A stretch of DNA of 32,000 nt. Source: Cenarchaeum symbiosum A. Lineage in GTDB: Archaea > Thermoproteota > Nitrososphaeria > Nitrososphaerales > Nitrosopumilaceae. The stretch's first letter is position 1. Every line of letters begins with the position of its first letter. The DNA is taken from the NCBI GenBank assembly GCA_000200715.1, contig DP000238.1, positions 924,593-956,592 on the forward strand. Direction: 5' to 3'. Made by a program: the position numbers and the translations under genes. Shown one piece after another: positions 1 to 18,529 of this stretch. The notes beneath the pieces are model-generated. The model did no database searches. It saw only the letters and a program-made list of their open reading frames with translations, and had not been told where the DNA came from.

Positions 1-1146
1 GCGGCATACGCGGACAGCGCAGAGTCCGGCAGTGGCGAGCCCGGCGGGATGATATTCTCTGCCGACGGGACCAGCATGTACCTGCTCGATGCAGATGATG
101 GCGGCGTGCGCGAATATTCCATATCGCCCCCGTACGGCTTTGACTCTGTAAGCAGTGTAATGCTCCACGAAATAGAGGGCGCGGCCAACCTTACAGGCAT
201 GACGTTCTCGCCAGACGGAACGGCCATCTTTATCTCGGGAGACGCAGGAATATTCCGGTACGAGCTGCCCGCAGAGTACTCGCCTGCCGGGGCGGTTCTG
301 TCCGGCAGGTTTACGCCGGCGGCCCCCGCGGGTGCTCCCGCCGATATAGAGATCTCAGCCGACGGGCTGCACCTTGTTGTGGCAGGCGCAGACGGCTCCA
401 TACACGGGTACGCGCTCGACAGACAGTCCGAGCTGGGGGCACGCGGCGTGCCCCGCGCGCTGAATCTCGGAGGGGGGTCGGTCCCCGCGGGCGTGGCGTT
501 CTCTGGGAATGGCTCCATAGCATACGTGGCAGATTCCGGCAGCGGCGAGGTTCGCGCGTACGGCCTTGCCTCCCCGTACGACATACAGGGGGCCGCATCG
601 ATCTTCAGCCTGAGCGTTCCTGCAGTGCCGGCAGGTGTCGCGCTATCGCCTGACGGCCAGAGGATGCTAGTGCCCGAGCCCGGCGGCATTCTTCAGTATG
701 TGCTGGGCACGCCCTACGACCTGTCGTCTGCCGTGCTCGGGGTCAGTTTTGTCCCGGACGAGGAGCCGGATCCCCGCGGGGTCGCGTTTACACCCGACGG
801 CCTGCGGATGTTTGTATCAGGGCCGGAATTCATCCACAGATACGGGCTTGCAGAGCCGTACAATGTAGACGACCCCGCATACGCGGGATCCGACGCGTCC
901 CCCATTCCGTCAACCGAGGGGGTGGCGTTCTCTGATCACGGCTATAGGATGTTTGTCGCCGGCGGGGGCGCTGTCAGCGCCTACTCCCTGGATGATCCGT
1001 TTGCCCCGTCCACTGCCATCCACGACGGGTCGTTTGACCTCGGGGACGGGGCGGACCCGCGGGGCGTGGCATTCTCTGCGGACGGCAGCAGGATGTTCGT
1101 TCCCGGCGGCGGAAATGAATTCGTGCTACAATATGCAGTGGGAACG
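1..1146 (+). repeat. Propeller module P0, with 8 blades visible and truncated by the window edge.
   Basis: The blade cores are MIFSADG, MTFSPDG, IEISADG, VAFSGNG, VALSPDG, VAFTPDG, VAFSDHG and VAFSADG. The module ends at the hairpin HRIDVC..GGC (nt 1162-1197). Confidence 0.75.
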
Positions 1147-4100
1147 CACCGCATAGACGTGTGCCCCGACGGGATGTCGGTCTTTGAGGGCGGCTGCACG
1201 ATGACGGGGCCCGCGGGCGGGCCGCGCCTCGTATCTGCAGCCATGGACCCCCGCACCGGGGAGCTCGAGATGTTCTTTGATAGGGCAATGGACCCGGGCC
1301 TATCCACGGGGATTGTGCAGATACGGGACGGTGTATCGCCTGCCGGCGGAACCACTCTTGCGGGCAGCTTCTCGGCAGGGCCGCGGCCCGAGGTATTACG
1401 CATCACGCTTGAGAACGATTCCAGGGCAGAGGCTGCAGAATTTGCAGACCCCCGGCTGTACTTTGGAAATGATGCACTGCAGGGCTTGGACGGGGGGTTC
1501 TTCCCTGCCGCCTTTGACGCGCCGCGCACGGAATTCACGGGAGTGCTCGACGTCTCCACATGGGATACAACGGTACGCGGCGTCACATTTTCGCACGACG
1601 GGCTCCAGGTGTTCACGGTAAGCCACGGCGACACCATAGTCCGCTTTGTGCTCTCCGAGCCCTACGACATAAACACCGCGTCGCATGCGAGGACGTACGG
1701 CGGCAACATACAAGACGAGGCGGGCAGCGGCATAAGGTTCTCGTCTGACGGGATGATCATGTTCACATCCGACTGGGGCAAGGACGCCATCCACAGGTAC
1801 GACCTTGTCTCGCCATACGAGCTCGACGGAAGGGTGCGCGGCGGCTCGTTCAATGTGAGGTCCCAGACCGGGACGCCCTTTGGCCTTGACTTTTCCGCAG
1901 ACGGCAGCATCATGTTTGTGATCTCATCCAATCCGGGCACGCTCTTCCGGTACGACCTTGGAATTCCATACGACGTGAGGTCCGCCGTGCTCGATAGCAG
2001 GCTTGACATATCGGGCGAGCTCACCGCCGGCCACGGAGTAGACTTTGCCCCCGACGGCATGAGGTTCATAGCGGCGGGCTTTGAGTTTGAGGGCCCCGAC
2101 GCGACCAGCACGGATGTGAACCAGTACGACTTGTCCGAACCGTACAACATAACGAGCGCCGTGCATGCAGGCGCGTATATTGTGCCCGCTGCACAGGGCG
2201 GGTTTACCAACGACATAGCCCTCTCGGAGGACGGGACGGTATTCCTCCTGGCCGACCCCCAGTTTGACGCAATACAGCAGTTCAGGCTAGCCGAGCCGTT
2301 TGACCTGCTGCCCCGCGCATACCATGCGTCGGCCAACATTACAGCGCATGCGCCAGAACCAGAAGACATAGTGATCTATGGAAACGGCTCGCGAATGCTC
2401 ATACTCGACGGGGATGCGGGCGGCGTATACGAATACGGGATCGCCGAGCCTCACGACGTGCGCACCATGTCATATACGGGGGTGTTCCAGAATGTGACAA
2501 GGGACGGGGGGAGCCCCTCGGGGCTGGCCCTCTCGCCCGACGGAACACTCATGCTGGTATCAGGATCCCCGCAGGGCCACGTCTCCGCGTATGCACTGGG
2601 AACAGCACACGACATATCGAGTGCGGCCTACTCGAGCAGCCTCAACGTCTCAGATATGGCCCCGGACCCCACCGGCGTGGACATATCCGATGACGGGTCG
2701 TGGCTGTTCGTCAGCAGGGAGAGGGGAAGCCGGGGGGACGTGCACCGGTACCATCTGGCCGAGCCGTTTGAGATAGGCACGGCGCTGTACCTTGATACCC
2801 TGGATACGGACAAGGATGGCAGGCCTTCCGAGGCCGCCCTTGGAACAGACGGCCTGTATCTGCTTGCGACAAATAGGGACCTTGGCGCGGTGGCCCACTA
2901 TACAATGGATGTGCCGTTTGAGATCGACGGCGGCGTGCTGGAATACGTCCTGGATGTATCCCCAGAAGAGGCGGCACCCGCGGGGCTTGATGTGGCAGAT
3001 GACGGGAGCAGCATGCACGTGGCCGGCGCCGGCGGCATCCACCAGTACCTGTTTGACGGCAGGCCTCTAGAGTACTGTTCGGAAGGGCAGTCCATATACA
3101 ACGGCGCGTGCGCCGGCGGGCTGCCGGAGGCGCCATCCATAACGTCTGCTGCCGCAATGCTGCAGGCTGGCGGCGGAACTATAGAGGTCCGCTTTGACAG
3201 GCAGGTTCGCGCCGATACCGCAAGGCCTTCGATAATAAACATAACCGACGGGGGAGCGGCTGCAGGGTTTGCGCTAAATCCCGGCAGCGCCGCGGGAACA
3301 GGCAACGTGCTGAGCTTTGCCATCGATGCCGATGGTGCCGCAGAGCTGGCGGGGCAGGCGGGGCCCGTGGTCCGCTTTGGCGCGGGCTCGCTGCTCGCGG
3401 ATAACGGGGCCGCGTTTCCCCCCGTCTTTGGGCTGAGCCCCCTCATGTACGAGGGGGCGGTTGATACGTCCGCCCAGGCGGCAAGCGTGGGCGGCGCCGC
3501 GTTTGGCGCCGGCGGCAGCAGGTTGTTTGTAGCCGGGGAAGACGGCATGATTCACAGGTACGACCTGCCTGTGCCCTTCTGGCCCGCCGGCGCCACCCAT
3601 GCAGAGAGTCATGACTTTGGGGCGGGCGGCCTGGCGGGGGTTGCCCTGTCGGATAACGGCCGCAGGATCTTTGTCATAAGCGGGGCGGACGGCCGCATAG
3701 ACCAGTACAACCTCGGGACCGCCTTTGATCTTGGAGGACCTGTCCACATGGGATCGTTCGATACAGGGGCGAATGCCAGCGGGATATACCTTGCGCCCGG
3801 CGGCGCAAACATGCTCGTCTCAAATTCCAGCGGGTCTGTGCACAGGTATGCGCTCGGAGCGCTCTTTGATGTGACCTCCGCCGTTCCCGCGGGCTCCGCG
3901 GATACGGGCGCTATAGAGCCCACCGGCGTCGCGTTCTCGGCTGACGGCCTAAACATGATAGTCTCGGACCGGTCGGGCATGCTGCACAGCTATGCCCTGG
4001 GCGTGGGCTTTGATCTGGGCAGCCTGGTCCGCGGAGGCACGTTTAGCTCGGCCGTGCAGTCGCCGTCCCCCGCAGACGTGGCGTTCTCGCCGGATGGAAC

Positions 4101-7100
4101 GACGATGATCATATCCGAGAGAACAGGATCCATCCATGCGTACTCGCTCAACTCGCACCCGGTCAGGATCTGCGCCGCCCCGGGCATGCTGTCCGGGGGC
4201 GCATGCGCCCCGCCGGAGATGCCGCGGATCACAGATGCCGCGCTGGCTGGCGGCGTGGTGGTGCTCGAGTTTGACAGGACGATAGACGTCTCGACTGTCA
4301 ACATATCGAGAATGCACGTGGCCGACGGGCTGAACCTGAGCAGGAGCGTGGACCTCCACGGGGGCATCCTCGAGACCGCCTCGGATCTTGACACGCTAAG
4401 AATCAGGCACTCCGGCCTGCTCGGTGCTGAATTTGGAGACGCCTCCATTCACTTTGACGCAGGGGCACTTGAGGATTCCATGGGCATGCCGTTTCCCCCC
4501 GCGTTCGGGCTGCCCCTGCCCGCCCACGTGGAGACGCTCTCCGGGGTAGTAGGGGAGAGACCTACCGGGATGGCCTTTGATCCCGGCGGCATGCGCATGT
4601 ACGTGACTGGGCGGGACCCGGGGGCTGTGCGCATGTACGCGCTTCCGGGGCCCTTTGATATAGCGGGGGCCGTCGAGGGTGACGCGTTTTCTGTAGAAGA
4701 GGACGGCGTCCCGACGGGCATCGCGTTTTCCCCGAACGGCAGCCGCATGTTCCTCTCGGGGAACACGGGCGATTCCATATACGGGTACAATCTATCCATC
4801 CCGTACGATGTGACTACTTCCGTGCACTCGGAGACCTTTTCGGTGGCAGGCCAGGACGCCTCCCCCACGGGCGTGGCGTTCTCAGATGACGGCATGCACA
4901 TGATGGTCTCCGGGGATGCAGGGGACTCTGTATACGCGTATGTGCTAGCAGAGCCGTACGACATAACGGGCGCCGTGCATGCGGGCACGCTCGACATATC
5001 AGGACAGGAGACGGGCCCAAACGATATAGCCATCGGGCCGCTGGGGATGCGCGTCTTTGTAACAGGGGGCGCAGGAGGCGCTGTGCACATGTACGAGCTT
5101 GCCGAACAGTACTCGCTTGACGGGGCGCTATACTCTGCAACGCTTGCAGTGGGCGGCGAGGATTCCGCCCCCGTGGGCTCTGCATTCTCGGGGCACGGCC
5201 TTGACATATTCGTAATTGGCAACCAGAACGACGGCGTATACGGGTACGACCTTGCCGCGCCCTACGACCTCTCACAGGCGGGCACAGACCTGTACACGCC
5301 GGATGCCTCCGGCGACATAAACCCCACCGGGGCCGTCCTGTCCCCTGACGGCGCGCACCTCTTCATAACTGACAGCACGGAGGTAATAGACCTGCGGCAC
5401 GACCTGGCAGTCCCCAATTACATAGCATCTGCGGGCCCCGCCGGGACGCTGCCGACGGGCACGGCGGGCATCACGGGGGCGGACATATCAGCCGACGGGA
5501 CGATGATCTTTGTCATGAACAACAGCGATGATACGGTGTACAGGTATTCCATGGATGCCCCGTACGATGTATCAGCGGCAGTCGAGGACATGACTCTCGA
5601 CGTCTCCGGTCAGGAGAGGACGCCGACGGGGCTAGACGTCTCATCTGATGGAACATGGATCTTTGTCACCGGGATTACCAGCGATTCTGTGCACAGCTAC
5701 CGCATGGGCACGCCCTTTGATATAGGCGGGGCCGCATACAATGCATCCCTGGCCGTCCAGGACTCCGCCCCGCAGGGTGTAGCAGTGTCGGACGACGGGC
5801 TGTTCATCATGGTGGCGGGAAACGAAAACGACAGGCTGTACAGGTATGCCATGTCCTCCCCGTTCGACCTGAATACCGCGTCATATGCCGGCTCGTTTTA
5901 CACGGGAATGCAGGATGTTACGCCGCGGGACGTCTCGTTTGCGGCAGGCGGCACATCGGTCCTTGTGCCCGGGAGCAGCAACGACTCTGTGCACAAGTAC
6001 CCCCTGAATGTGCACCGCCTGGAGGTCTGCCAGGAGGGCGAGCGGTTCACAAACGGGGCATGCTCCGTCAGGGCGGCAGGGAGCCCATCCATGGTATCCG
6101 CCTCGATAGACGGCTCCGCCCTACTCAGCATGCTGTTTGACCAGGAGATAGATGCAGGCACGGTGGACGCTTCGAGAATCCACGTCAGGGACGGGGGAGG
6201 GTTTGACGGAGGGATTGCCCTGTCCGGATTAAACGCCACCATAAGCGGGGGGGCAGTAGAGTTTGTCCTGGGGACGGCGGATGCCGCCGAGGTGCTCGGA
6301 TATGAAAACCCGAGGCTGCACTTTGATTCAGGCGCGCTATCCAGCTCCGGCGGGGGGAGCTTTCCGCGCCCCTACGGGCTGCCCCTGCCGGCATACAGGG
6401 AGAGCGTGCCCGCGCCAGGAGACGGGACTGTTCCCGGAGGGCTGGCCTTTTCGCCTGACGGCATGCGGATGTACACGCTGGGCACAGGCAATGGAACCGT
6501 AGAAGAGTACAGCCTTTCTGGCCCCTACGATTCGTCTGGCGCCACGCTCCAGGGTTCACTGTACATAGGGGAGAGGGAGGAGAGCCCCACCGGGCTTGCC
6601 CTTGGGGATGACGGCAGCGCCCTATTTGTCGTGGGCACCGGTTCCGGTTCTGTGCACATGTATGATCTAGACTCTGCATACTCTGTAGAGAGCGCCACAT
6701 ATGCAGGCTCGAGGACGGTATCGGGGCAGGAGGGCGAGCCTGCAGGGGTCGCCTTCTCGTCAAACGGCACGCTCATGTTCGTCTTCGGGGAACAGACGGG
6801 GCAGGTGCACAGGTACGGCCTAGAGCAGCCGTACCGGCCAGGCGGGTCCGGGTACCTTGGAGTGTTTGACCCCGGGGACCTGCCGGGAATCCCGCAGGAT
6901 ATCATATTCTCGGCCGACGGGAGCGGCATGTCGCTGCTCTATTCCGGGGAGGTGCCGGGGGTCATCTCGGATGCGGTGCACCATTACCGGCTGGGGGCCC
7001 CGTACGAGACGGCGGGCGCCGCATACGCGGGCAACTATTCTGTAACCCGGTGGGATGACGAGCCCCGGGGCGCGGCCTATGCGGCCGACGGCAGCAGCAT

Positions 7101-13100: not shown

Positions 13101-16100
13101 GGCGTTCTCCCCGGACGGGCTCAAGATGTTCGTCGTGGGAAACGATGCGGTGCACCAGTATGCACTGGGCTCGCAGTTTGGCTTCAGCCCCGCCCCGTCG
13201 TTCGAGCATGACTTTAGTGTGGCCGAGGACGGCCTGGTCACGGGAATAGACTTTGGGAATAACGGCACCAGGATGTACCTATCGGGCGCAAACAACAGCG
13301 CCATCCAGCAGTACGACCTCTCTACACCGTACGATATAGAGGCGCAGCCCGTCCATGCGGGGAACTTTAGCACCGCCGGCCAGTATGACTCGCCCCGCGG
13401 GGTAGTAGTCTCCGGCGACGGCCGCATCATGCTGGTACTGGGCCAGCCGGACGACAAGGTGTTCATGTACGGGATGGACGAGCCGCACGATATATCCACC
13501 GCAGGGTATGTGGGCTCCCACGAGATCACAAACTCGGAGCGCAACCCGGAGGGAATAGCGGCGTCGGACGACGGAAGGCTGCTCTTTGTCACGGGCACCG
13601 TGACCAACAGTGTGTTCAGGTACAATCTCGGGGCGCCGTACGATGCGGCCCGGGACGGGGCGGGGGCCGGGCCCACCCTGACCAATACCATCAGGGCCCC
13701 TACGGGGATTGTATTTTCCCCTGACGGCCTGCAGTTGTTCCTCTCCTCCCACGGTGCAGATCTTGTACAATCGTACAACCTGACAGCCCCCTATGGCGTG
13801 GCGACGGCCACGCCTGCGGACACTTATAATCTTCCCGTGGACCCCGGCCGCAATCGTCCATTTGATGTGGAATTTTCCACGGATGGCCTCCTGATGTTTA
13901 CCACCGGGCGTAACCCCCTAAGACTGTATTCGTTTACGCTGGATGCGCCGTACAACATATTGTCGGCCGTGGAGAATAGCAGGTACGACATAACGATAGC
14001 GCCGTTGAATACTCAGACGGGCGTGATATTCAACCCCAATGGGACCATCATGCTGCTTGCAGCGGGAACCCGCGGCGGCGGCATCATACAGGAATACAAC
14101 CTCCCCAGCCCGTACAACATATCCGGCGCCGTGGCGGCCCCGTTCAGCATAACGGACGGGCTGGTCCCGCTGGGGATTACATACTCGTCGGACGGGCACA
14201 GGCTCTTCGTCATGGATGATGCCGAGGTGGTGCACAGGTACGACCTTCTAACGCCGTATACGCTGAGGGATGCCCTGTTTGTGGACTCTGGTGAATTCAA
14301 AGACGGTGCCCAGCCCAACGACTTGGCGTTCTCCGGTGACGGCGGAAAGATGTTCATAGCCTGGGGCAACGATAACAGGATAGAGACGTACAACCTGACA
14401 GCCCCCTACGACATAACCTCGTCTGCCAGCCCCGTGTCCCTTTCAGCGGACACCGGCTCCCCCACCCCGAGCGACGTCTCCGTGAGCGCAGACGGCAGGA
14501 CGGTGCTTGTATTCAACAATGTACGGGACGCGGTCATTGGGCACAGCCTACGCCAGCCGTACGACCTGTCCACACCCGCATCATCGGTCCAATCGGCAGA
14601 GGCCGACAACACCAATGTAAACGCGATGGAGTTCTCACCCAACGGGACGCTGATGTTCCTGTCGGGATGGAACGAGACAAGTCCCATAGTACAAGGACGA
14701 ACTGTCTATACGTACAACCTGAGCGCCCCGTTTGACGTATCCACGTTCCAGCGCATAGGCGAGTTTCACACCCGGGATGCGGTAAATGCGCTGACGGGAG
14801 ACGCCAGTATAAGCAGCCCCTCGGCAATGAGGTTCTCGGCTGACGGGACGGATCTGTATCTAATAGACGAAATCGATCAGTTGATACATCACTTTAGCCT
14901 GAGCAGCCCGTACCTGCTTGACAATACGACTGCCTATGTGGAAGCCCTTGATGTCAATCCGCCGGAGAGCAACCCCTCCGGGCTTGAACTGTCGGCCGAC
15001 GGCACAAGGCTGTTCATCACGGGGGCCGGCAGTGACCGCATACGCCAGTACGACATGGATATCGCGTACAACCTCTCCACCGCCGTGCATTCGGAATCGA
15101 TCAACGCGGTCGGGCTCGACAGCCAGGCCCGTGGGCTTGCATTCTCAGAGGACGGCTCTAGATTGTTCTTTGTCGGGGATGATACGGATCGGATATACCT
15201 GCTTGATCTGGCGGCCCCCGAGGTCATACGTGTACTGCCCGGCATGTTAGATGATGTGATATCTGTGACGCACAACGTAACGGCGGTGGACAGGCCCTCT
15301 ATCTCCGATGGCCGCCCAGACTCCACGGTTAAACCCATATCCGCCGGAGACGCCCCGTCATTTGTGGATGCGCCCGGCGTGGACGCCATGATAGGTAGGG
15401 ATGTGATGGATGCGCCGGCCGTATCCGATCCGGCCAGGCTGGCTGTATCGTTCCACCTGACGGGAGACGACGCGCCGGCGGTTCTAGATGTGCCCGGCGT
15501 GGGCGAGACGGCCAATCGGCCCATACCCGTGCCCGGCGATGACAGCCCGTCATTTGCGGAACTGCCCGGCGTGAAAGTCGTGATGGATGTAGATGCTCCA
15601 AATGGAACGGACAGGCCGACCGTGGCCGAGGAGCACCGCCTGGTCCGGACCGTGTCGTTGTCCGGAAACGACACCCTGACAGTTGAGGAGAGGGAAGACG
15701 TGGGCGGCATGAGCCGGAATGCAGTGGATAGGCCGGTCATATCCGATCCGGTCAGGGTGGCCGTATTGTTCCATCTGGAGGGAGACGACGCGCCGGCGGT
15801 TCTAGATGTGCCCGGCGTGGGCGAGATGGCCAACCAGTCCATACCCAGGCCCGCCGAGGATAGACCGTCATTCATGGATCTATCCGGTGTGGACTTTGCG
15901 GCGGTCAGGAATGCGGCAGACGCGCCGGCCGTGTCCGACGAGCCCAATCTGGCCCGGAGCACATCCATATCCGGAAATGATTCGCCATCATTCGAGGATA
16001 TGCCCGGCGTGGGCGGCATGGTAGCCCCGAATGCAGCGGATGCGCCGGCCATATCCGATCCGGCCAGGGTGGCCGTATTGTTCCATCTGGAGGGAGACGA

Positions 16101-18441
16101 CGCGCCGGCGGTTGATGATCTGCCCAGCGTGGGCGAGACGGCCAATCGGCCCATACCCGTGCCCGGCGATGACAGCCCGTCATTTGCGGAACTGCCCGGC
16201 GTGAAAGTCATGATGGGTGTAGGTGCTCCGAATGGAACGGACAGGCCGACCGTGGCAGAGGAGCACCGCCTGGTCCGGACCGTGTCGTTGTCCGGAAACG
16301 ACACCCTGACAGTTGAGGAGAGGGACGACGTGGGATCCATGGCAAGGCCGAATGCAACGGATGCGCCGGCCATATCCGATCCGGCCAGGGTGGCTGTATT
16401 GTTCCATCTGGAGGGAGACGACGCGCCGGCGGTTGATGATCTGCCCAGCGTGGGCGAGACGGCCAATCGGCCCATACCCGTGCCCGGCGATGACAGCCCG
16501 TCATTTGCGGAACTGCCCGGCGTGAAAGTCATGATGGGTGGAGATGCTCCGAATGGAACGGACAGGCCGACCGTGGCAGAGGAGCACCGCCTGGTCCGGA
16601 CCGTGTCGTTGTCCGGAAACGACACCCTGACAGTTGAGGAGAGGGACGACGTGGGATCCATGGCAACCCCGAATGCAACGGATGCGCCGGCCATATCCGA
16701 TCCGGTCAGGGTGGCCGTATTGTTCCATCTGGAGGGAGACGACGCGCCGGCGGTTCTAGATGCGCCCGGCGTGGGCGAGATCCCCGTCCTACCCATACCC
16801 CTGCCCGGCGGAGATAGCCCGTCATTCATGGAACTGCCCGGCGCGAACGTTATGACGGGCGGGGATACGGTAAACAGGAGTGCAGCGGATGCGCCGACCG
16901 TGGCCGAAGACCAACGCGTGGCCCGGAGCACATCCATATCCGAAGATGATTCCCCGACATTTGAGGAGATGCCCGGCGTGGGCGGCATGACTAGCCGGGA
17001 TGCGGCGGATATGCCTGCCGTCTCCGATCCGGTCAGGGTGGCCGTATTGTTCTTCCTGTCGGGAGATGACGCACCGGCGGTTCTAGACGTGCCCCGCGTG
17101 GACAGCAGCATCGGGGACATGCCCGGCGCGGGCCATGGCGATGACACACTGGCCGTGGCTGATCATGCCAGCCTCGGGGTATACAGGATGGCGTCCGACG
17201 CGCCGGTCATTGAAGATATAATGGATACAATAGTCAATGGCACGTTCCGGCTCACCCCGAGAGATATTCCGGTCGTGGCTGATCCGGCCAGGCTGGCTGC
17301 ACAGTTCTTCCTGTCGGGAGATGACGCACCTACTGTTCTAGATGTGCCCGGCGTGAATAGCGGCGTCGAGGATGCACCAACCGTGTCTGATCACGCCAGC
17401 ATCGGGTTCTCCCGGATGGCATCCGACGAGCCGGCCGTGGCAGATTCCGCCCAGCCCGGCGACCTGATGTTCCGCGATACTCCAGACGTCGAAGATTCGG
17501 CGGCGCTCGGCCTCTCCATTACTGTCTCCGACGAGCCCGCCGTGGCCGACCGCACGCCGGGTATAGAACCGGCAGACAGTCCGGCAGTCTCGGATTCGGC
17601 CGTGCATGCAGTCATGCCGGGTCCGCCGGCAGAACCCGAGCCCCGGCCCGCGCCGAGCCCCGCACCCCGGTCCGGCGGGGGCGGCGGAGGCGGCAGCCGC
17701 ACCGGAGTCACCTTCGAGGGCGGCGCATCCTCGGGGCACAGCGTATCGTTTAGCTTCATCTCAAGCGCGGCAGACGCAATGCACGGCCTGTCGGACATAC
17801 GCCTGGCACCCGGCGCGGCCCTTACGGTGGCGCCCCAGATGGTCCCCGACAACCTAAACGTCTTCGAGATGGAGCTGGCCTTTGGCACGGACGACGGCGC
17901 GGCTGCAAACGTCCATTACAGCAGGATAGGCAACTTCCTCGGGATTACCTGCGACGGGGACGCGTATACATCCGGGATGCTGCACGCGTGCGACATCTCG
18001 TCCGCCATATCCGAGGATTCCGTCACAGTCCACGGGGAGGGCCCTGCCTTTGAGGGGATAACCGTGCCCTTTGAGGGCGACTTTGAGGGGACCGTCAGCA
18101 TACTCCTCCGGGACAGCCGCGGCATAATCTTGGCCGCGCATGAATCCGACGTGTACGGCATACAGACAGCCCTGCCCGCGGAGCCGGAGCCCCCCGCCCC
18201 CGCCGAGATCGCCCCCGCCGTGGATGATGCCGCCCCGGAGGAGCCCCGCCGCGCAGAGCCCGATCCGGAGCCTGTGGAGCGCGCCCCGGAGCCGGAGCCT
18301 GAGCCCAGCGCGGATCCGGTGCGCATTGCGGGGCCCGAGCCTGCAGACCCCGAGCCCGAGGATGAGGGGGTCATAGGGATGATAGTCGACTTTATCAGGT
18401 CCGTCCTGGGCCGGGTCTGGCCTGCGGCCGGCACCCCATGA
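1..18441 (+). CDS. Giant extracellular repeat protein, 5'-partial (6,146 codons visible). It contains beta-propeller blade arrays, Cys-hairpin/Ig-like spacers, two acidic 107-aa tandem-repeat arrays and a Pro/Glu-rich C-terminus.
   Basis: Frame 1 is open from nt 1 to the TGA at 18439-18441. Nt 1-48 encode AAYADSAESGSGEPGG with no stop and resemble the inter-blade loops seen later (e.g. ATYAGSRTVSGQEGEPAG), so the ATG at 49 is internal. There are 73 copies of the blade motif G-[VIL]-[AD]-[FIL]-S-x-D-G-x-x-[ML]-[FLIV]-V ... [HRQ]-x-Y-x-L-x-x-P-[YF]-D-[IV]-x-x-A, 7 spaced Cys hairpins and in-frame 321-bp repeats. An 18.4-kb open frame with periodic conservation cannot arise by chance. Confidence 0.92.
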   Translation, partial: AAYADSAESGSGEPGGMIFSADGTSMYLLDADDGGVREYSISPPYGFDSVSSVMLHEIEGAANLTGMTFSPDGTAIFISGDAGIFRYELPAEYSPAGAVLSGRFTPAAPAGAPADIEISADGLHLVVAGADGSIHGYALDRQSELGARGVPRALNLGGGSVPAGVAFSGNGSIAYVADSGSGEVRAYGLASPYDIQGAASIFSLSVPAVPAGVALSPDGQRMLVPEPGGILQYVLGTPYDLSSAVLGVSFVPDEEPDPRGVAFTPDGLRMFVSGPEFIHRYGLAEPYNVDDPAYAGSDASPIPSTEGVAFSDHGYRMFVAGGGAVSAYSLDDPFAPSTAIHDGSFDLGDGADPRGVAFSADGSRMFVPGGGNEFVLQYAVGTHRIDVCPDGMSVFEGGCTMTGPAGGPRLVSAAMDPRTGELEMFFDRAMDPGLSTGIVQIRDGVSPAGGTTLAGSFSAGPRPEVLRITLENDSRAEAAEFADPRLYFGNDALQGLDGGFFPAAFDAPRTEFTGVLDVSTWDTTVRGVTFSHDGLQVFTVSHGDTIVRFVLSEPYDINTASHARTYGGNIQDEAGSGIRFSSDGMIMFTSDWGKDAIHRYDLVSPYELDGRVRGGSFNVRSQTGTPFGLDFSADGSIMFVISSNPGTLFRYDLGIPYDVRSAVLDSRLDISGELTAGHGVDFAPDGMRFIAAGFEFEGPDATSTDVNQYDLSEPYNITSAVHAGAYIVPAAQGGFTNDIALSEDGTVFLLADPQFDAIQQFRLAEPFDLLPRAYHASANITAHAPEPEDIVIYGNGSRMLILDGDAGGVYEYGIAEPHDVRTMSYTGVFQNVTRDGGSPSGLALSPDGTLMLVSGSPQGHVSAYALGTAHDISSAAYSSSLNVSDMAPDPTGVDISDDGSWLFVSRERGSRGDVHRYHLAEPFEIGTALYLDTLDTDKDGRPSEAALGTDGLYLLATNRDLGAVAHYTMDVPFEIDGGVLEYVLDVSPEEAAPAGLDVADDGSSMHVAGAGGIHQYLFDGRPLEYCSEGQSIYNGACAGGLPEAPSITSAAAMLQAGGGTIEVRFDRQVRADTARPSIINITDGGAAAGFALNPGSAAGTGNVLSFAIDADGAAELAGQAGPVVRFGAGSLLADNGAAFPPVFGLSPLMYEGAVDTSAQAASVGGAAFGAGGSRLFVAGEDGMIHRYDLPVPFWPAGATHAESHDFGAGGLAGVALSDNGRRIFVISGADGRIDQYNLGTAFDLGGPVHMGSFDTGANASGIYLAPGGANMLVSNSSGSVHRYALGALFDVTSAVPAGSADTGAIEPTGVAFSADGLNMIVSDRSGMLHSYALGVGFDLGSLVRGGTFSSAVQSPSPADVAFSPDGTTMIISERTGSIHAYSLNSHPVRICAAPGMLSGGACAPPEMPRITDAALAGGVVVLEFDRTIDVSTVNISRMHVADGLNLSRSVDLHGGILETASDLDTLRIRHSGLLGAEFGDASIHFDAGALEDSMGMPFPPAFGLPLPAHVETLSGVVGERPTGMAFDPGGMRMYVTGRDPGAVRMYALPGPFDIAGAVEGDAFSVEEDGVPTGIAFSPNGSRMFLSGNTGDSIYGYNLSIPYDVTTSVHSETFSVAGQDASPTGVAFSDDGMHMMVSGDAGDSVYAYVLAEPYDITGAVHAGTLDISGQETGPNDIAIGPLGMRVFVTGGAGGAVHMYELAEQYSLDGALYSATLAVGGEDSAPVGSAFSGHGLDIFVIGNQNDGVYGYDLAAPYDLSQAGTDLYTPDASGDINPTGAVLSPDGAHLFITDSTEVIDLRHDLAVPNYIASAGPAGTLPTGTAGITGADISADGTMIFVMNNSDDTVYRYSMDAPYDVSAAVEDMTLDVSGQERTPTGLDVSSDGTWIFVTGITSDSVHSYRMGTPFDIGGAAYNASLAVQDSAPQGVAVSDDGLFIMVAGNENDRLYRYAMSSPFDLNTASYAGSFYTGMQDVTPRDVSFAAGGTSVLVPGSSNDSVHKYPLNVHRLEVCQEGERFTNGACSVRAAGSPSMVSASIDGSALLSMLFDQEIDAGTVDASRIHVRDGGGFDGGIALSGLNATISGGAVEFVLGTADAAEVLGYENPRLHFDSGALSSSGGGSFPRPYGLPLPAYRESVPAPGDGTVPGGLAFSPDGMRMYTLGTGNGTVEEYSLSGPYDSSGATLQGSLYIGEREESPTGLALGDDGSALFVVGTGSGSVHMYDLDSAYSVESATYAGSRTVSGQEGEPAGVAFSSNGTLMFVFGEQTGQVHRYGLEQPYRPGGSGYLGVFDPGDLPGIPQDIIFSADGSGMSLLYSGEVPGVISDAVHHYRLGAPYETAGAAYAGNYSVTRWDDEPRGAAYAADGSSMLVLGAEGIHRYDLAAPFDPVRTISSGRTDISSDVQYPIDAAFSADGTRMFALDLSDPHIHVYELGTPFDARTASRTMLLNLTEERNPKGIEFSRDGTQMMILGREELHRYSLDEPFETEPVHVSTQDDFIFIVNRFSGMDFSSDGLSLFHTSLASLQVQAFSLGAPYDIRSYAHLPSLNIGELGSQPVALAFSESGDRMFVLEAGSDGLHEYSLGIPYNLDTAERAGTHVAGVLDASIGGISFSKDGQKLYILSDVPGTIDQHVIGTRQLNTCSADQAAFEGTCRRELAVHGSDEPAVSENPARHIGDESAVADSAVAEITFHQAPVFNGAFLDMGGRILELAFDEEIDVARPERMSITDSKDYAQGTSLAGASVGGEGGIVRLGLTAEQMAGIASYQSPALRLGELAVIGTGGGAFPGPYDIADAAYVGSADVAGDASHPTGVAFAPNGSRFFVADPTNVRSRVVQYGWDGSNIASAAPEGSAVLTGPENSRNIELGGISLDPDGGRLLATDIEGSARVYSYSIEGAEIGALEYDGGSLNTNNRASFPTDAVAGFGGHRLFVSNYVDSRIHVYNLDRPHDIGAGSAAYNGSVQTDAGGLNATGVFVSPNGAHMIVTLQDGLDGGRILRYNMSTPFDAYGIIQDGALDISGETVAPQGAAFTPDGLEMIVVDSAVGMLRHYSLGIRNITVCEEGMIVDSGMCTVERADATSRPGVSDRASIREMAPTVLSVSLYADPGVLEIAFDAAINSSLTDPSKMHIRDGSAPSGGTSLAGGGVVGSTPENAAGISLTQAQLSEISGYENPTLHLAPGALQSIGGHAYPPGGGLPFPSEYASIDLLEYDNSAAAIAFSEDGTRMFMIGGEFETVFAFDLSRPFMIDTARPAGSFHAGDDVRFVEDMEFARGGGSVFVSDSSTDLVHAYALGAPYDVTTAVREQTLDTGADGLDARGTAFSRDGRTLFVLDGDETAARYATSSPYYIEGAEYEGDVPVDGARFVTNMEFSRDGTTMLIVAVNTSGAFSLEILQYGMDAPFDVGSAEPEGTLDTEILGDPVDVAVSSDGLRAFAIAGGTSTVHGFSLAGAFDAARYPPAEGAYVGAEEQAPTGAAVSGDGSIFVVGESGMIRRYDAGSGGYAEAYSGADRNATAATDIAFSDDGMLVFILDDGSDALYGYRADSPYELGGLPPAGSLYVGDNSSSPAGAAFSDGGGRLFVADGATGMVHGYSLAAPYALDGATYTGSYDSSEQQGAPTGVAFSPGGMEMFISGGEFVHMYGLDAPYEVESADSSGSFYTGRHDGAIQGVDFFPGGSAMAVVGDETDTVYVYALGTHHIRECGLEYSSGVCMPDDLLAYGRAAPTVADSAGLAALFFLSGGDAPAVLDLPGVGEIPILPIPVPGDDSPSFAELPGVKVMMGVGAPNGTDRPTVAEEHRLVRTVSLSGNDTLTVEERDDVGSMARPNATDAPAISDPVRVAVLFHLEGDDAPAVLDLPSVGEMANRPIPVPGDDSPSFAELPGVKVMMGGDAPNGTDRPTVAEEHRLVRTVSLSGNDTLTVEERDDVGSMARPNATDAPAISDPVRVAVLFHLEGDDAPAVLDVPGVGETANRPIPVPGDDSPSFAELPGVKVMMGGDAPNGTDRPTVAEEHRLVRTVSLSGNDTLTVEERDDVGSMATPNATDAPAISDPVRVAVLFHLEGDDAPAVLDLPGVGETANRPIPVPGDDSPSFAELPGVKVMMGGDAPNGTDRPTVAEEHRLVRTVSLSGNDTPSVEEREDVGGMSRNAVDRPAISDPARLSAQFFLSGDDAPTVLDVPSVSDRAEHTGSGVMSPPDLQVVSTVLDSRGVLEITFDGLVVAENIDYNLISITDGYAPAGRILLSPGELTHSGENSLRYTLGENKWNLVRNYADPRLRVDIGALGPGLPDVGYRLPDSLYPYEPDVVSAALPNNTEGAHQGLAFSRDGTVMFTVGLNLDTVFRYVLEQPYDISSARIEGNYSVGDREVNPRGLAFSPDGLKMFVVGNDAVHQYALGSQFGFSPAPSFEHDFSVAEDGLVTGIDFGNNGTRMYLSGANNSAIQQYDLSTPYDIEAQPVHAGNFSTAGQYDSPRGVVVSGDGRIMLVLGQPDDKVFMYGMDEPHDISTAGYVGSHEITNSERNPEGIAASDDGRLLFVTGTVTNSVFRYNLGAPYDAARDGAGAGPTLTNTIRAPTGIVFSPDGLQLFLSSHGADLVQSYNLTAPYGVATATPADTYNLPVDPGRNRPFDVEFSTDGLLMFTTGRNPLRLYSFTLDAPYNILSAVENSRYDITIAPLNTQTGVIFNPNGTIMLLAAGTRGGGIIQEYNLPSPYNISGAVAAPFSITDGLVPLGITYSSDGHRLFVMDDAEVVHRYDLLTPYTLRDALFVDSGEFKDGAQPNDLAFSGDGGKMFIAWGNDNRIETYNLTAPYDITSSASPVSLSADTGSPTPSDVSVSADGRTVLVFNNVRDAVIGHSLRQPYDLSTPASSVQSAEADNTNVNAMEFSPNGTLMFLSGWNETSPIVQGRTVYTYNLSAPFDVSTFQRIGEFHTRDAVNALTGDASISSPSAMRFSADGTDLYLIDEIDQLIHHFSLSSPYLLDNTTAYVEALDVNPPESNPSGLELSADGTRLFITGAGSDRIRQYDMDIAYNLSTAVHSESINAVGLDSQARGLAFSEDGSRLFFVGDDTDRIYLLDLAAPEVIRVLPGMLDDVISVTHNVTAVDRPSISDGRPDSTVKPISAGDAPSFVDAPGVDAMIGRDVMDAPAVSDPARLAVSFHLTGDDAPAVLDVPGVGETANRPIPVPGDDSPSFAELPGVKVVMDVDAPNGTDRPTVAEEHRLVRTVSLSGNDTLTVEEREDVGGMSRNAVDRPVISDPVRVAVLFHLEGDDAPAVLDVPGVGEMANQSIPRPAEDRPSFMDLSGVDFAAVRNAADAPAVSDEPNLARSTSISGNDSPSFEDMPGVGGMVAPNAADAPAISDPARVAVLFHLEGDDAPAVDDLPSVGETANRPIPVPGDDSPSFAELPGVKVMMGVGAPNGTDRPTVAEEHRLVRTVSLSGNDTLTVEERDDVGSMARPNATDAPAISDPARVAVLFHLEGDDAPAVDDLPSVGETANRPIPVPGDDSPSFAELPGVKVMMGGDAPNGTDRPTVAEEHRLVRTVSLSGNDTLTVEERDDVGSMATPNATDAPAISDPVRVAVLFHLEGDDAPAVLDAPGVGEIPVLPIPLPGGDSPSFMELPGANVMTGGDTVNRSAADAPTVAEDQRVARSTSISEDDSPTFEEMPGVGGMTSRDAADMPAVSDPVRVAVLFFLSGDDAPAVLDVPRVDSSIGDMPGAGHGDDTLAVADHASLGVYRMASDAPVIEDIMDTIVNGTFRLTPRDIPVVADPARLAAQFFLSGDDAPTVLDVPGVNSGVEDAPTVSDHASIGFSRMASDEPAVADSAQPGDLMFRDTPDVEDSAALGLSITVSDEPAVADRTPGIEPADSPAVSDSAVHAVMPGPPAEPEPRPAPSPAPRSGGGGGGGSRTGVTFEGGASSGHSVSFSFISSAADAMHGLSDIRLAPGAALTVAPQMVPDNLNVFEMELAFGTDDGAAANVHYSRIGNFLGITCDGDAYTSGMLHACDISSAISEDSVTVHGEGPAFEGITVPFEGDFEGTVSILLRDSRGIILAAHESDVYGIQTALPAEPEPPAPAEIAPAVDDAAPEEPRRAEPDPEPVERAPEPEPEPSADPVRIAGPEPADPEPEDEGVIGMIVDFIRSVLGRVWPAAGTP
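1540..3066 (+). repeat. Propeller module P1 (10 blades).
   Basis: I counted ten S-x-D-G-type blade cores by eye, from GVTFSHDG to GLDVADDG. The module ends at the hairpin LEYC..GAC (3076-3111). Confidence 0.75.
3457..4160 (+). repeat. Propeller module P2 (5 blades).
   Basis: The blade cores are AAFGAGG, VALSDNG, IYLAPGG, VAFSADG and VAFSPDG. The module ends at the hairpin VRIC..GAC (4171-4206). Confidence 0.75.
4531..6018 (+). repeat. Propeller module P3 (10 blades).
   Basis: There are ten blade cores, from GMAFDPGG to DVSFAAGG. The module ends at the hairpin LEVC..GAC (6028-6063). Confidence 0.75.
6400..7908 (+). repeat. Propeller module P4 (10 blades).
   Basis: There are ten blade cores, from GLAFSPDG to GISFSKDG. 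The module ends at the hairpin LNTC..GTC (7918-7953). Confidence 0.75.
8362..9162 (+). repeat. Propeller module P5 (5 blades).
   Basis: The blade cores are VAFAPNG, ISLDPDG, VAGFGGH, VFVSPNG and AAFTPDG. The module ends at the hairpin ITVC..GMC (9172-9207). Confidence 0.7.
9595..11085 (+). repeat. Propeller module P6 (10 blades).
   Basis: There are ten blade cores, from AIAFSEDG to GVDFFPGG. The module ends at the shorter hairpin IREC..GVC (11095-11124, C-x8-C). Confidence 0.75.
11191..12540 (+). repeat. Tandem-repeat array A: about 4.2 copies of a 321-bp (107-aa) in-frame unit.
   Basis: Unit starts (codon V/A of A-[AV]-LF[FH]L) fall at 11191, 11512, 11833 and 12154, and a partial fifth unit starts at 12475. 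Units 2 and 3 differ at only 4 of 107 aa. The unit sequence is AVLFHLEGDDAPAVLDLPSVGEMANRPIPVPGDDSPSFAELPGVKVMMGGDAPNGTDRPTVAEEHRLVRTVSLSGNDTLTVEERDDVGSMARPNATDAPAISDPVRV. Confidence 0.95.
12910..15215 (+). repeat. Propeller module P7 (15 blades), with no terminal Cys hairpin.
   Basis: There are fifteen blade cores, from GLAFSRDG to GLAFSEDG. An Ig-like spacer (~12560-12880) precedes the module, and array B follows it directly. Confidence 0.75.
15290..17600 (+). repeat. Tandem-repeat array B: 6-7 units of 312-327 bp of the same family as array A, decaying at both ends.
   Basis: Unit starts fall at 15445, 15763, 16075, 16396, 16717 and 17044, and a degenerate unit starts near 17299. The units at 16075 and 16396 are near-identical to array A units, down to the GVG versus GGD and ARPNAT versus ATPNAT variants. 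The units at 15763 and 16717 are a divergent subtype (..ARSTSIS..DSPSFE.MPGVGGM..). Confidence 0.9.
17610..18441 (+). other. C-terminal region of the giant protein: a Pro-rich linker, a Gly7 run, a domain of about 150 aa with a C-x12-C pair, a Pro/Glu-rich tail and an 18-aa amphipathic end.
   Basis: The Pro-rich linker and Gly run read PGPPAEPEPRPAPSPAPRSGGGGGGGS. The Cys pair is ITC..(x12)..C at nt 17950-17991. The tail reads ALPAEPEPPAPAE...PEPEPEPSADP...PEPEDE and the protein ends GVIGMIVDFIRSVLGRVWPAAGTP*. Confidence 0.7.
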
Positions 18442-18508: not shown

Positions 18509-18529
18509 CAAGGCGTGCATGGCCTGTGC

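What the first reader, a model, noticed from the sequence alone, without database searches (positions are those of the whole stretch)
1..18441. Single ORF of more than 6,146 codons fills 58% of the window and is still open at its 5' end
One frame runs without a stop from nt 1 to 18441. The first 16 codons already look like an inter-blade loop, so the gene begins upstream and the protein is larger than 6,146 aa. Its composition is acidic and Ser/Gly/Asp-rich, and its 16 Cys all fall in regularly spaced pairs, which argues for an extracellular protein. If the host-associated, Cenarchaeum-like guess is right, a multivalent surface protein of this size is a candidate attachment or host-interaction factor. 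The function is entirely inferred.
Basis: partly seen in the sequence, partly recalled or inferred. Interest (0 to 1): 0.8.

Follow-up and report, generated by a model that had tools for sequence, protein, structure and literature searches.

The report
Giant five-bladed-propeller surface protein
The long open frame is a real gene of the sponge symbiont Cenarchaeum symbiosum A; it encodes more than 6,146 residues of what is most likely a sugar-coated, strongly acidic cell-surface protein built from about fifteen small five-bladed propeller domains, one of at least nine such genes in that genome, and its function has never been tested.

Summary
Frame 1 is stop-free from nt 1 to the TGA at 18439-18441 (6,146 codons; chance about 1e-80) and starts in the middle of a repeat.

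The window is Cenarchaeum symbiosum A: nine neighbouring proteins are exact matches. By locus-tag order the gene is probably CENSYa_0897, public since 2006 and unstudied.

The protein contains 73 blades of about 50 residues, related to the YVTN propeller of a Methanosarcina S-layer protein (1L0Q, E 9e-26). The blades come in blocks of at least 8, then 10, 5, 10, 10, 5, 10 and 15. A 5-blade block models as one compact domain (pLDDT 90, pTM 0.86).

Blocks are capped by a Cys-x10-Cys loop and separated by Big_5-like Ig domains. After them come two arrays of 107-residue acidic repeats, a Cenarchaeum-only C-terminal domain, a Pro/Glu spacer and a conserved amphipathic tail.

A surface location is supported indirectly:
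- Six of eight strain-A paralogs have signal-peptide-like N-termini.
- N-glycosylation sequons are about three-fold enriched.
- Lys is 0.34% and net charge is -543.

A role in host attachment is still inference. The true start and total length could not be retrieved.

Verdict: a real, moderately interesting variant of a known kind, the giant modular surface protein.

The parts
1..18441 (+). Giant ORF, 6,146 codons plus TGA, open at the 5' end. Probably CENSYa_0897 of Cenarchaeum symbiosum A; the tag is inferred from locus-tag order.
   Evidence: stop-free frame, P about 1e-80; the next gene is CENSYa_0898
7..1197 (+). Propeller block M0: 8 blades visible, so at least 2 more lie upstream if the multiples-of-five rule holds. 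Includes the Cys388-x10-Cys399 loop.
   Evidence: blade HMM; Cys positions
1198..1539 (+). Spacer domain L1, a roughly 110-residue beta-sandwich, Big_5-like.
   Evidence: hhalign probability 95% to a Big_5-matching segment; 7 strands in the model
1540..3111 (+). Propeller block M1: 10 blades (two five-blade units) plus the Cys1026/1037 loop.
3112..3444 (+). Spacer domain L2.
3445..4206 (+). Propeller block M2: 5 blades plus the Cys1391/1402 loop. This is the unit that was modelled.
   Evidence: AlphaFold2 pLDDT 89.8, pTM 0.86, 20 strands plus hairpin
4207..4530 (+). Spacer domain L3.
4531..6063 (+). Propeller block M3: 10 blades plus the Cys2010/2021 loop.
   Evidence: (low-confidence hinge exactly between blades 5 and 6)
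6064..6399 (+). Spacer domain L4.
6400..7953 (+). Propeller block M4: 10 blades plus the Cys2640/2651 loop.
7954..8388 (+). Spacer domain L5, with a short acidic insertion before it.
8389..9207 (+). Propeller block M5: 5 blades plus the Cys3058/3069 loop.
9208..9600 (+). Spacer domain L6.
9601..11124 (+). Propeller block M6: 10 blades plus the Cys3699-x8-Cys3708 loop.
11125..12552 (+). Acidic repeat array 1: about 4.1 copies of a 321-nt (107-residue) unit. Three copies are 98-99% identical. Each unit is made of roughly 20-residue D-x-P-x-V-x-D/E sub-repeats.
   Evidence: sequence
12553..12903 (+). Spacer domain L7, 76% identical to the matching domain of CENSYa_0917.
12904..15255 (+). Propeller block M7: 15 blades (three five-blade units) with no Cys loop. 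It is 62-77% identical to CENSYa_0917.
15256..17640 (+). Acidic repeat array 2: about 5.3 copies of the same 321-nt unit, followed by degenerate short D-x-P-x-V repeats.
17674..17694 (+). Gly7 run (residues 5892-5898). A poly-Gly run also precedes the C-terminal domain in the paralogs.
17701..18171 (+). C-terminal domain of about 155 residues with a conserved Cys pair (5984/5997) and LRD-x-x-G motif. Among the 150 best relatives it occurs only in six C. symbiosum sequences.
   Evidence: 24 invariant columns; no PDB or Pfam relative
18172..18366 (+). Pro/Glu-rich spacer.
   Evidence: present in all paralogs with an intact C-terminus
18367..18438 (+). Terminal amphipathic segment GVIGMIVDFIRSVLGRVW(PAAGTP). 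The paralogs share the motif [IL][LI]Dx[IL]I[DEG]FF[RA]S[LI][FL]G. Proposed to be the tether.
   Evidence: hydrophobic moment 0.45-0.61

Best explanation
The ORF is the 3' 18.4 kb of a functional gene of Cenarchaeum symbiosum A, probably CENSYa_0897. I propose that it encodes a secreted, N-glycosylated, strongly anionic giant protein displayed on the cell surface.

Shown:
- The chain is a string of beads. At least 14 five-bladed propellers of the YVTN/WD40-like type are grouped one, two or three per block.
- Each block except the last is closed by a short Cys-x10-Cys loop.
- Blocks are separated by Big_5-like Ig domains.
- They are followed by two arrays of acidic 107-residue repeats, a family-specific C-terminal domain, a Pro/Glu spacer and a short amphipathic C-terminal helix.

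Inferred:
- The protein is exported by an N-terminal signal peptide like those of its paralogs.
- It is tethered at its C-terminal end, through the conserved domain and helix, to the membrane or the S-layer.
- The acidic repeats and Pro/Glu spacer act as an extended stalk that projects the propeller array outward.
- The variable loops of many similar but non-identical propellers bind ligands weakly and multivalently. Candidate ligands are glycans or matrix components of the sponge mesohyl, or other cells.
- The coat is therefore adhesive or a recognition layer.
- The nine or more paralogs, with diverged N-terminal arrays and a shared C-terminal cassette, would give a diversified set of such coats.
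For: Real gene: a stop-free run with P about 1e-80, a coding GC3 pattern, and homology along its whole length to 8,946 cluster representatives, 1,954 of them at E<1e-30.

Identity of the organism: exact matches of nine neighbours to C. symbiosum A.

Five-bladed unit:
- Blade runs in the window are 8+, 10, 5, 10, 10, 5, 10 and 15.
- Five is the modal run length (319 runs) in 141 non-Cenarchaeum relatives.
- The AlphaFold2 model of a 5-blade block has pLDDT 89.8 and pTM 0.86, with 20 strands.
- The 10-blade model has a low-confidence hinge exactly between blades 5 and 6.

Surface kinship:
- The best solved relative by sequence profile is the M. mazei surface-layer protein 1L0Q, E 8.6e-26.
- The spacer profile matches a Big_5-type Ig segment with hhalign probability 95%.
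- Bacterial relatives carry Bact_surface_Ig-like, Big_5 and PKD domains and a signal peptide.

Export: six of eight strain-A paralogs begin with a hydrophobic signal-like segment followed by a spacer domain.

Glycosylation:
- 70 of 178 Asn lie in N-x-S/T, against 24 +/- 4.4 in shuffles (maximum 38 in 1,000) and 12% in neighbouring genes.
- The excess is present in all eight strain-A paralogs and absent in the mostly unnamed non-Cenarchaeum relatives.

Charge: Lys is 0.34% against 4.5% in the neighbours; net charge is -543 and pI 4.2. The Nitrosopumilus S-layer protein has a similar composition (PMC11153153).

C-terminal tether: the domain, Pro/Glu spacer and amphipathic tail are conserved in five strain-A paralogs. 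A sixth sequence, the fosmid-derived O74056, has the C-terminal domain but a different C-terminal end.
Against: - The N-terminus of this protein was not seen, so its own signal peptide is unverified.
- There is no transmembrane segment and no PGF/PEF-CTERM sorting signal at the C-terminus, so the tether is conjecture.
- No ligand-binding residues can be named. The only invariant blade positions are structural Gly, Tyr and Pro.
- No expression, proteomic or localisation data were found.
- Ring closure of the five blades rests on model confidence and counting. Coordinates could not be inspected, and no five-bladed structure came up in Foldseek; the best hits were seven-bladed WD40s at TM 0.57 or less.
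- Repeat copies that are 98-99% identical make the exact copy number, and so the length, dependent on assembly.
Confidence: 0.6

Rival explanations
1. The protein is a non-adhesive polyanionic coat. It is a surface glycoprotein whose main job is electrostatic or protective. It could concentrate ammonium and other cations near an ammonia oxidiser, as proposed for the thaumarchaeal S-layer. It could also shield the cell from host proteases and phagocytosis. In this reading the propellers are only rigid, protease-resistant filler.
For: Net charge is -543, pI 4.2, and there are only 21 Lys in 6,146 residues. The Nitrosopumilus S-layer protein is likewise acidic and low in Lys and Arg, carries 17 N-glycans and acts as an ammonium trap (PMC11153153). 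Acidic putative S-layer proteins are expanded in sponge ammonia oxidisers (PMC6790972). The acidic repeat arrays make up about 20% of the visible protein.
Against: It is not a homolog of the Ig-array S-layer protein family. A charge function does not explain roughly 15 diverged propellers or nine diverged paralogs. Arg is retained at 4.7%, so it is Lys specifically that is avoided, not positive charge in general.
Confidence: 0.2
2. The protein is released rather than tethered. The giant protein is shed or secreted into the sponge mesohyl as a matrix, biofilm or effector component, and the C-terminal module serves export or processing instead of anchoring.
For: There is no transmembrane helix or archaeosortase signal at the C-terminus. 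A conserved extreme C-terminal motif can be a secretion or processing signal.
Against: A Pro/Glu spacer followed by an amphipathic helix is a typical stalk-and-tether layout. No dedicated secretion genes lie next to the gene apart from a tatC, and the paralog signal peptides mostly lack twin arginines.
Confidence: 0.1
3. The protein is an enzyme array. The propellers would be catalytic SGL, lactonase or strictosidine-synthase-like domains, for example lactonases that quench bacterial signals in the sponge.
For: Pfam SGL (73 bits against a 26.3 cut-off) and Lactonase (68 bits against 21.7) score above their whole-protein cut-offs. A survey of proteins above 5,000 residues lists these two domains as exclusive to Thaumarchaeota among archaea (PMC11573180).
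Against: The scores are sums of blade-level matches that each cover only a third or less of the 246- or 344-position models. The unit here has five blades, not the six or seven of those enzymes. No polar residue is invariant across units; only Gly, Tyr and Pro are.
Confidence: 0.03
4. The gene is an artefact or is decaying. The ORF could be an assembly chimera of a mixed symbiont population, or a pseudogene family member that merely looks intact.
For: Repeat copies are 98-99% identical within and between the two arrays. Several paralogs look truncated or frameshifted: the C-terminus of CENSYa_0849, both ends of 0819 and the C-terminus of 0708. From my own knowledge, the genome was assembled from fosmids of an uncultured population.
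Against: A decaying gene would not be expected to keep 18.4 kb free of stops (P about 1e-80). The blade periodicity, the multiples-of-five rule and the module order are all intact. All repeat units are multiples of 3 nt (321 nt).
Confidence: 0.05

Closest known systems
Methanosarcina mazei surface-layer protein MA0829 (PDB 1L0Q): YVTN beta-propeller plus PKD domain. Described by Jing et al. 2002, cited in PMC6697440.
   Same: It is an archaeal surface protein. Its propeller blades are the best solved sequence relative of the blades here (profile E 8.6e-26). The propeller is followed by an Ig-like beta-sandwich domain.
   Different: From my recollection of Jing et al. 2002, 1L0Q has a single seven-bladed propeller with blades of about 42 residues. 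Here the blades are about 50 residues with a P-Y-D-I-x-x-A extension, close in fives, and are repeated about 15 times. The spacer is Big_5-like rather than PKD. The protein is roughly ten times larger.
Paralogs in the same genome: CENSYa_0917, 0849, 0848, 0842, 0846, 0708, 0582 and 0819, plus O74056 from the 1998 fosmid
   Same: They share the same blades, Cys loops, spacer domain, acidic repeats, C-terminal domain, Pro/Glu spacer and terminal motif. Residues 3600-6146 are 55-77% identical to CENSYa_0917, which by locus-tag order lies just beyond the window.
   Different: Residues 1-3600 are only 25-40% identical to any paralog. At more than 6,146 residues this is the longest member seen; the next are 5,278 and 5,246.
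Uncharacterised giant proteins with arrays of five-blade units in bacteria and metagenomes (for example P0003 with 6,246 residues on an 8.6-Mb contig, P0005, P0006 and P0007)
   Same: They share the blade family at 30-40% identity and the same five-blade periodicity, for example 14 x 5, 10 x 5 and 8 x 5. They are of giant size. P0006 has a signal peptide and Ig-like spacers.
   Different: They lack the Cenarchaeum C-terminal domain and the acidic 107-residue repeats. They carry other surface modules such as Bact_surface_Ig-like, PKD and DUF285. They show no sequon excess and less Lys depletion, with a median of 2.0%.
Giant repetitive bacterial adhesins, such as RTX/Bap-type adhesins built from Ig-like extender repeats, ligand-binding modules and a cell anchor (from general knowledge)
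   Same: The design logic is the same: great length, a repetitive extender region, multiple binding modules, an acidic composition and an anchor at one end.
   Different: There is no sequence relationship. No RTX or type 1 secretion signals are present. The binding modules here are propellers rather than lectin or vWA domains. The host is an archaeon with an S-layer.
Nitrosopumilus maritimus S-layer protein NmSLP (Nmar_1547)
   Same: It is a thaumarchaeal surface glycoprotein that is acidic and low in Lys, with many N-glycans (PMC11153153).
   Different: NmSLP is an array of ten Ig-like domains (1,734 residues) that forms a hexagonal lattice. It has no propellers, and no homology to it was detected.

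Membership tests
YVTN-type beta-propeller repeat (as in PDB 1L0Q) | Blade-level sequence similarity to the YVTN repeat | tested here: met
   A profile of 14 five-blade units finds 1L0Q as the best solved relative, E 8.6e-26, with 2 stretches covering profile positions 13-258.
YVTN-type beta-propeller repeat (as in PDB 1L0Q) | Seven blades of about 40 residues closing one ring | tested here: not met
   Blades are about 50 residues (HMM length 51). They occur in runs of 5, 10 and 15. The 5-blade unit models as a compact domain with pTM 0.86.
Pfam SGL (PF08450) and Lactonase (PF10282) enzyme propellers | Full-length match to the six- or seven-bladed domain model | tested here: not met
   Whole-protein scores pass the cut-offs, but the best stretches cover only positions 127-199 of 246 or 241-320 of 344. 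These are blade-level matches summed over many blades.
Pfam SGL (PF08450) and Lactonase (PF10282) enzyme propellers | Conserved catalytic or metal-binding residues | tested here: not met
   The invariant columns across the 14 units are Gly x5 and Tyr; Tyr and Pro are nearly invariant. No conserved Asp, Glu, His or Asn was found.
Archaeal surface (S-layer-type) glycoprotein | N-terminal signal peptide | not testable with these tools
   The 5' end is outside the window and could not be retrieved. Six of eight strain-A paralogs have a signal-like N-terminus.
Archaeal surface (S-layer-type) glycoprotein | Enrichment of N-glycosylation sequons | tested here: met
   There are 70 sequons against 24 +/- 4.4 expected, about 10 standard deviations above expectation. 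The eight strain-A paralogs show 0.22-0.47 sequons per Asn against 0.15 expected.
Archaeal surface (S-layer-type) glycoprotein | Recognised C-terminal anchor (transmembrane helix, PGF-CTERM or PEF-CTERM) | tested here: not met
   No NCBIfam sorting-signal match was found. The tail is an 18-residue amphipathic segment with charged residues, not a transmembrane helix.
Archaeal surface (S-layer-type) glycoprotein | Forms the two-dimensional lattice (a true S-layer protein) | not testable with these tools
   This needs electron microscopy or proteomics. The known thaumarchaeal S-layer protein belongs to a different, Ig-array family.
Big_5 (PF13205) bacterial Ig-like domain, for the spacer domain | Sequence or profile similarity to Big_5 | tested here: inconclusive
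   There was no direct Pfam hit and no PDB hit. The spacer profile does align to the Big_5-matching segment of relative P0006 with hhalign probability 95%, E 2e-8. The link is therefore indirect.
C. symbiosum giant propeller paralog family | Spacer domain, Cys-capped propeller blocks, C-terminal domain, Pro/Glu spacer and terminal FFRSLFG-like motif | tested here: met
   All elements are present and alignable.

The most novel reading that the evidence does not exclude
The five-blade unit could be a distinct, so far undescribed closed propeller type built from YVTN/WD40-like blades. It would serve as a portable 'bead' in about two thousand clusters of giant surface proteins across bacteria and archaea.

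In Cenarchaeum symbiosum the unit would have been expanded by cassette duplication and gene conversion into a diversified surface repertoire. That repertoire takes up about 5% of the genome and is Lys-free, glycosylated and polyanionic. It would mediate recognition by the sponge, or evasion of it. This would be an archaeal counterpart of variable adhesin families in bacterial symbionts.
Probability: 0.25. Interest if true: 0.7.

Novelty: new variant of a known kind. Interest (0 to 1): 0.45.

Why it matters
Cenarchaeum symbiosum is the classic uncultured archaeal sponge symbiont, and how it is recognised and tolerated by its host is unknown.

This gene and its eight strain-A paralogs encode at least 33,450 residues. 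That is about 100 kb, or 4.9% of a 2.05-Mb genome, a large investment in one class of surface protein. The published comparisons of sponge Thaumarchaeota that I read do not discuss it.

If the proteins are displayed and bind host components, they are the obvious candidates for the symbiont-host interface.

Structurally, a propeller that closes with five WD40/YVTN-like blades and is used as a repeating bead would be a new entry in the propeller catalogue. It is common in metagenomes: 1,954 cluster representatives at E<1e-30.

The near-absence of lysine and the sequon excess are testable signatures of selection on an exposed archaeal glycoprotein.

None of this is a new principle. Giant modular surface proteins are well known, and the sequence has been public since 2006.

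Tried and rejected
1. Retrieving the 5' end failed by every route.
- The species-representative genome collection does not return C. symbiosum. It gave only two Verrucomicrobiales MAG loci at about 30% identity.
- An exact 50-mer was absent from the JGI metagenomes.
- Gene-position look-ups with three exact C. symbiosum neighbour proteins found no record.
- The TatC look-up hit only a 1-kb contig from a semi-synthetic benchmark run, ERR2185279.

2. The word-indexed protein search returned nothing for three different queries. One query was an alignment containing proteins that are in its own collection. I treat this as a blind spot of the tool for these giant proteins, not as evidence of absence.

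3. The giant protein itself is in neither protein library. The best hits are 30-42% identical, so its annotated length could not be read.

5. The spacer and C-terminal domains have no Pfam, NCBIfam or PDB sequence relatives.

6. Literature searches for the locus tags, accessions or 'giant genes' together with Cenarchaeum found nothing specific. The 2006 genome paper is not held.

7. I considered Tat export because tatC lies 580 nt downstream. I rejected it as unsupported: most paralog signal peptides lack a twin-arginine motif.

8. I considered a link to the 'expanded S-layer proteins' of sponge ammonia oxidisers. Those are orthologs of the Ig-array S-layer protein, which is a different family.
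Full report
**1. The observation**

Frame 1 of the + strand is free of stops from nt 1 to a TGA at 18439-18441, which is 6,146 codons. The next longest stop-free run in any frame is 742 codons. With the local base composition a stop is expected every 34 codons or so, so 6,146 stop-free codons have a chance of about 1e-80. GC is 0.65, 0.50 and 0.74 at codon positions 1, 2 and 3.

The frame is open at the 5' end in a meaningful way. The first 16 residues align with the end of the repeat consensus. The first repeat match starts at residue 3, so the first ATG (nt 49) lies inside a repeat.

**2. Source**

Nine ORFs downstream of the giant ORF are identical, residue for residue, to proteins of Cenarchaeum symbiosum A: ABK77530 (CENSYa_0898, at 18497-18991), then 0901, UbiX, 0904, 0906, the PurP-like ATP-grasp enzyme, TrkH, 0911 and ABK77546. 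All lie on a 2,045,086-bp contig.

By locus-tag order the giant ORF should be CENSYa_0897. This is an inference, because the protein itself is in neither protein library I could search.

I could not obtain the upstream DNA, so the true start and total length remain unknown. All complete blocks have 5, 10 or 15 blades and the first block shows only 8. The paralogs begin with a signal peptide followed by a spacer domain. At least about 240 further residues are therefore expected upstream (inference).

**3. Anatomy**

*Blades.* A blade HMM built from the protein has 51 positions and the consensus SPTGVAFSPDGTRMFVLGGGSGTVHRYSLGAPYDISGAVYAGSLDVGGEEG. It finds 73 blades in blocks of 8 (cut by the window), 10, 5, 10, 10, 5, 10 and 15.

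*Block ends.* Every block except the last ends in a variant blade. There the P-Y-D motif is replaced by G-T-H-x-I-x-V-C-x10-C.

*Spacers.* Blocks are separated by a domain of about 110 residues with the consensus SAxLDxxGxLExxFDxxID...IxDG...GG...P.L.F..GAL. It is predicted as a seven-strand beta-sandwich. It has no direct Pfam or PDB relative. Its profile does align, with hhalign probability 95% (E 2e-8), to the segment of a bacterial relative that Pfam assigns to Big_5.

*Acidic repeats.* After block 7 and after block 8 come two arrays of a 321-nt (107-residue) acidic repeat, at nt 11026-12533 and 15280-17360. Three copies are 98-99% identical. Copies in the second array, 4.9 kb away, are up to 97-98% identical to them. 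Each unit is made of roughly 20-residue D-x-P-x-V-x-D/E sub-repeats (sequence).

*C-terminal end.* The protein ends with these elements in order:
- a Gly7 run;
- a domain of about 155 residues with a conserved Cys pair;
- a Pro/Glu-rich spacer;
- the tail GVIGMIVDFIRSVLGRVWPAAGTP.

**4. The structural unit is five blades**

Three lines of evidence agree.
- Block sizes in the window are multiples of five.
- Among the 141 non-Cenarchaeum relatives retrieved, a run of five is by far the commonest: 319 runs, against 92 runs of four and 22 runs of ten. Whole proteins read 14 x 5, 10 x 5 or 8 x 5.
- AlphaFold2 on residues 1140-1405, using the 14 internal units as the alignment, gives mean pLDDT 89.8 and pTM 0.86, with 20 strands and a terminal hairpin. 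The 10-blade block gives pTM 0.46, and its low-confidence segment lies exactly at the blade 5/6 junction.

**5. Relatives**

An exhaustive HMMER search with residues 1403-2130 found 8,946 cluster representatives, 1,954 of them at E<1e-30. The best are proteins of 2,000-6,246 residues at 30-42% identity.

Those that share the whole architecture (spacer, acidic repeats, C-terminal domain) are all from C. symbiosum:

| Protein | Residues |
|---|---|
| CENSYa_0582 | 3,077 |
| CENSYa_0708 | 2,425 |
| CENSYa_0819 | 1,623 |
| CENSYa_0842 | 3,560 |
| CENSYa_0846 | 2,429 |
| CENSYa_0848 | 3,666 |
| CENSYa_0849 | 5,246 |
| CENSYa_0917 | 5,278 |
| O74056 (1998 fosmid) | 3,472 |

Together with this gene, the strain-A members encode at least 33,450 residues, about 4.9% of the genome (arithmetic).

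Residues 3600-6146 of the window protein are 55-77% identical to CENSYa_0917. By tag order that gene lies a few genes beyond the window. Residues 1-3600 are only 25-40% identical to anything. The gene is therefore a mosaic of a diverged propeller array and a recently shared C-terminal cassette.

Other relatives sit on 8.6-Mb and 8.3-Mb contigs, which are too large for a thaumarchaeon and so presumably bacterial, and in Verrucomicrobiales MAGs. One of them, P0006, has a signal peptide and Bact_surface_Ig-like and Big_5 domains. Another, P0007, has PKD and DUF285 domains.

By sequence profile the closest solved structure is the Methanosarcina mazei surface-layer protein 1L0Q, E 8.6e-26.

**6. 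Evidence for a surface glycoprotein**

- Six of eight strain-A paralogs start with a hydrophobic, signal-like segment followed directly by a spacer domain.
- 70 of 178 Asn are in N-x-S/T sequons. Shuffles give 24 +/- 4.4 with a maximum of 38 in 1,000, and the neighbouring genes show 12%.
- All eight strain-A paralogs show the excess (0.22-0.47 against 0.15 expected). The non-Cenarchaeum relatives do not (0.21 against 0.22).
- The protein has 21 Lys (0.34%) against 4.5% in the neighbours, net charge -543 and pI 4.2. The paralogs have 0.25-1.1% Lys. The Nitrosopumilus S-layer protein is also acidic, low in Lys and Arg and N-glycosylated (PMC11153153).
- The paired Cys at fixed positions fit disulfide-stapled loops.
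- The Pro/Glu spacer and the terminal motif [IL][LI]Dx[IL]I[DEG]FF[RA]S[LI][FL]G are conserved at the extreme C-terminus of five paralogs. The motif is amphipathic, with a hydrophobic moment of 0.45-0.61.

**7. Mechanism**

The explanation I commit to (confidence 0.6) has these steps:
- Sec-type export.
- N-glycosylation.
- Tethering at the C-terminal end through the conserved domain and helix.
- Projection of the propeller array on an acidic, extended stalk.
- Multivalent, low-affinity binding by the variable loops of about 15 non-identical propellers.

The architecture and the composition are shown. Export, tethering and binding are inferred.

The main rival (0.2) is that the same protein acts as a polyanionic, protease-resistant coat or cation trap rather than an adhesin. 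The two roles are not exclusive.

Three readings are less likely:
- A released matrix or effector protein (0.1).
- An enzymatic array (0.03). The Pfam SGL and Lactonase scores are sums of partial blade-level matches, and no polar residue is conserved.
- An artefact or pseudogene (0.05). The ORF is intact, although the repeat copy number is uncertain.

**8. Comparison and novelty**

The protein works like the giant modular surface proteins of bacteria. It is related at blade level to YVTN propellers of archaeal S-layer proteins.

It fails two membership tests: the seven-blade definition of that propeller, and the full-domain and catalytic definitions of SGL and Lactonase.

The sequence has been public since 2006. 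A survey of proteins above 5,000 residues noted in passing that SGL and Lactonase domains occur in thaumarchaeal giants (PMC11573180). The comparative papers on sponge Thaumarchaeota that I read do not discuss the family.

I rate it a new variant of a known kind. The grounds are the five-blade closure, the block-spacer grammar, the Cenarchaeum-specific C-terminal module and the 5%-of-genome expansion. Interest is moderate (0.45).

Noticed in passing
window 28896-29276 (+): A 126-residue ORF with an N-terminal hydrophobic segment (MKKAYIAVGILVPVAIVSIIFGSLG) followed by an extreme Met/Asp/Glu repeat (MMDD[ST]MMDE...). Met-rich motifs bind Cu(I) in other systems, and ammonia-oxidising archaea depend on copper, so it may be a small exported metal-binding protein. 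The two antisense ORFs across it look like by-products of the repeat.
   Followed up: no
window 19023-19817 (+): A tatC gene (Pfam TatC, E 2e-50) lies 580 nt downstream of the giant gene, after the 165-residue CENSYa_0898. Its exact product was found only on a 1-kb contig of the semi-synthetic benchmark run ERR2185279, so GenBank probably annotates a different start. No link to export of the giant protein could be shown.
   Followed up: partly
beyond the window's 3' end (inferred from locus tags): The paralog CENSYa_0917 (5,278 residues) should lie about three genes past CENSYa_0914 (29331-29813). Two giant paralogs would then flank a housekeeping stretch of about 14 kb that includes EF-2 (30001-31923, - strand). 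CENSYa_0842, 0846, 0848 and 0849 form another cluster.
   Followed up: partly
paralogs P0002 (CENSYa_0849), P0042 (CENSYa_0819), P0020 (CENSYa_0708): Several paralogs look truncated or frameshifted. The last 40 or so residues of 0849 leave the spacer-domain pattern. 0819 begins and ends with Cys- and Arg-rich out-of-pattern sequence. 0708 stops inside a blade. This points to gene decay, population heterogeneity or assembly errors in this family.
   Followed up: no
window 20000-23000: GC falls to 0.51-0.54, against 0.62-0.65 in the giant gene. The region holds CENSYa_0904 (21685-22239), which UniRef names a SocA-like Panacea antitoxin domain protein, and about 500 nt without a convincing ORF (21190-21680). 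It may be a small mobile or defence islet.
   Followed up: no
window 23147-23800 (+): CENSYa_0906 (217 residues) has a signal-like N-terminus, 0.9% Lys and 13.4% Asp+Glu. This is the same Lys-poor acidic signature as the giant protein. It has no Pfam match.
   Followed up: no
window 11347-12288 and 16231-16851: 321-nt repeat copies in two arrays 4.9 kb apart are up to 97-98% identical to each other at the DNA level. This indicates recent duplication or gene conversion inside the gene. It also means the repeat number in the deposited assembly may not be exact.
   Followed up: partly
tools: The word-indexed protein search returned no hit even for an alignment made of proteins that are in its own collection. 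Giant repetitive proteins seem to be invisible to it, so negative results from it should not be read as absence.
   Followed up: yes
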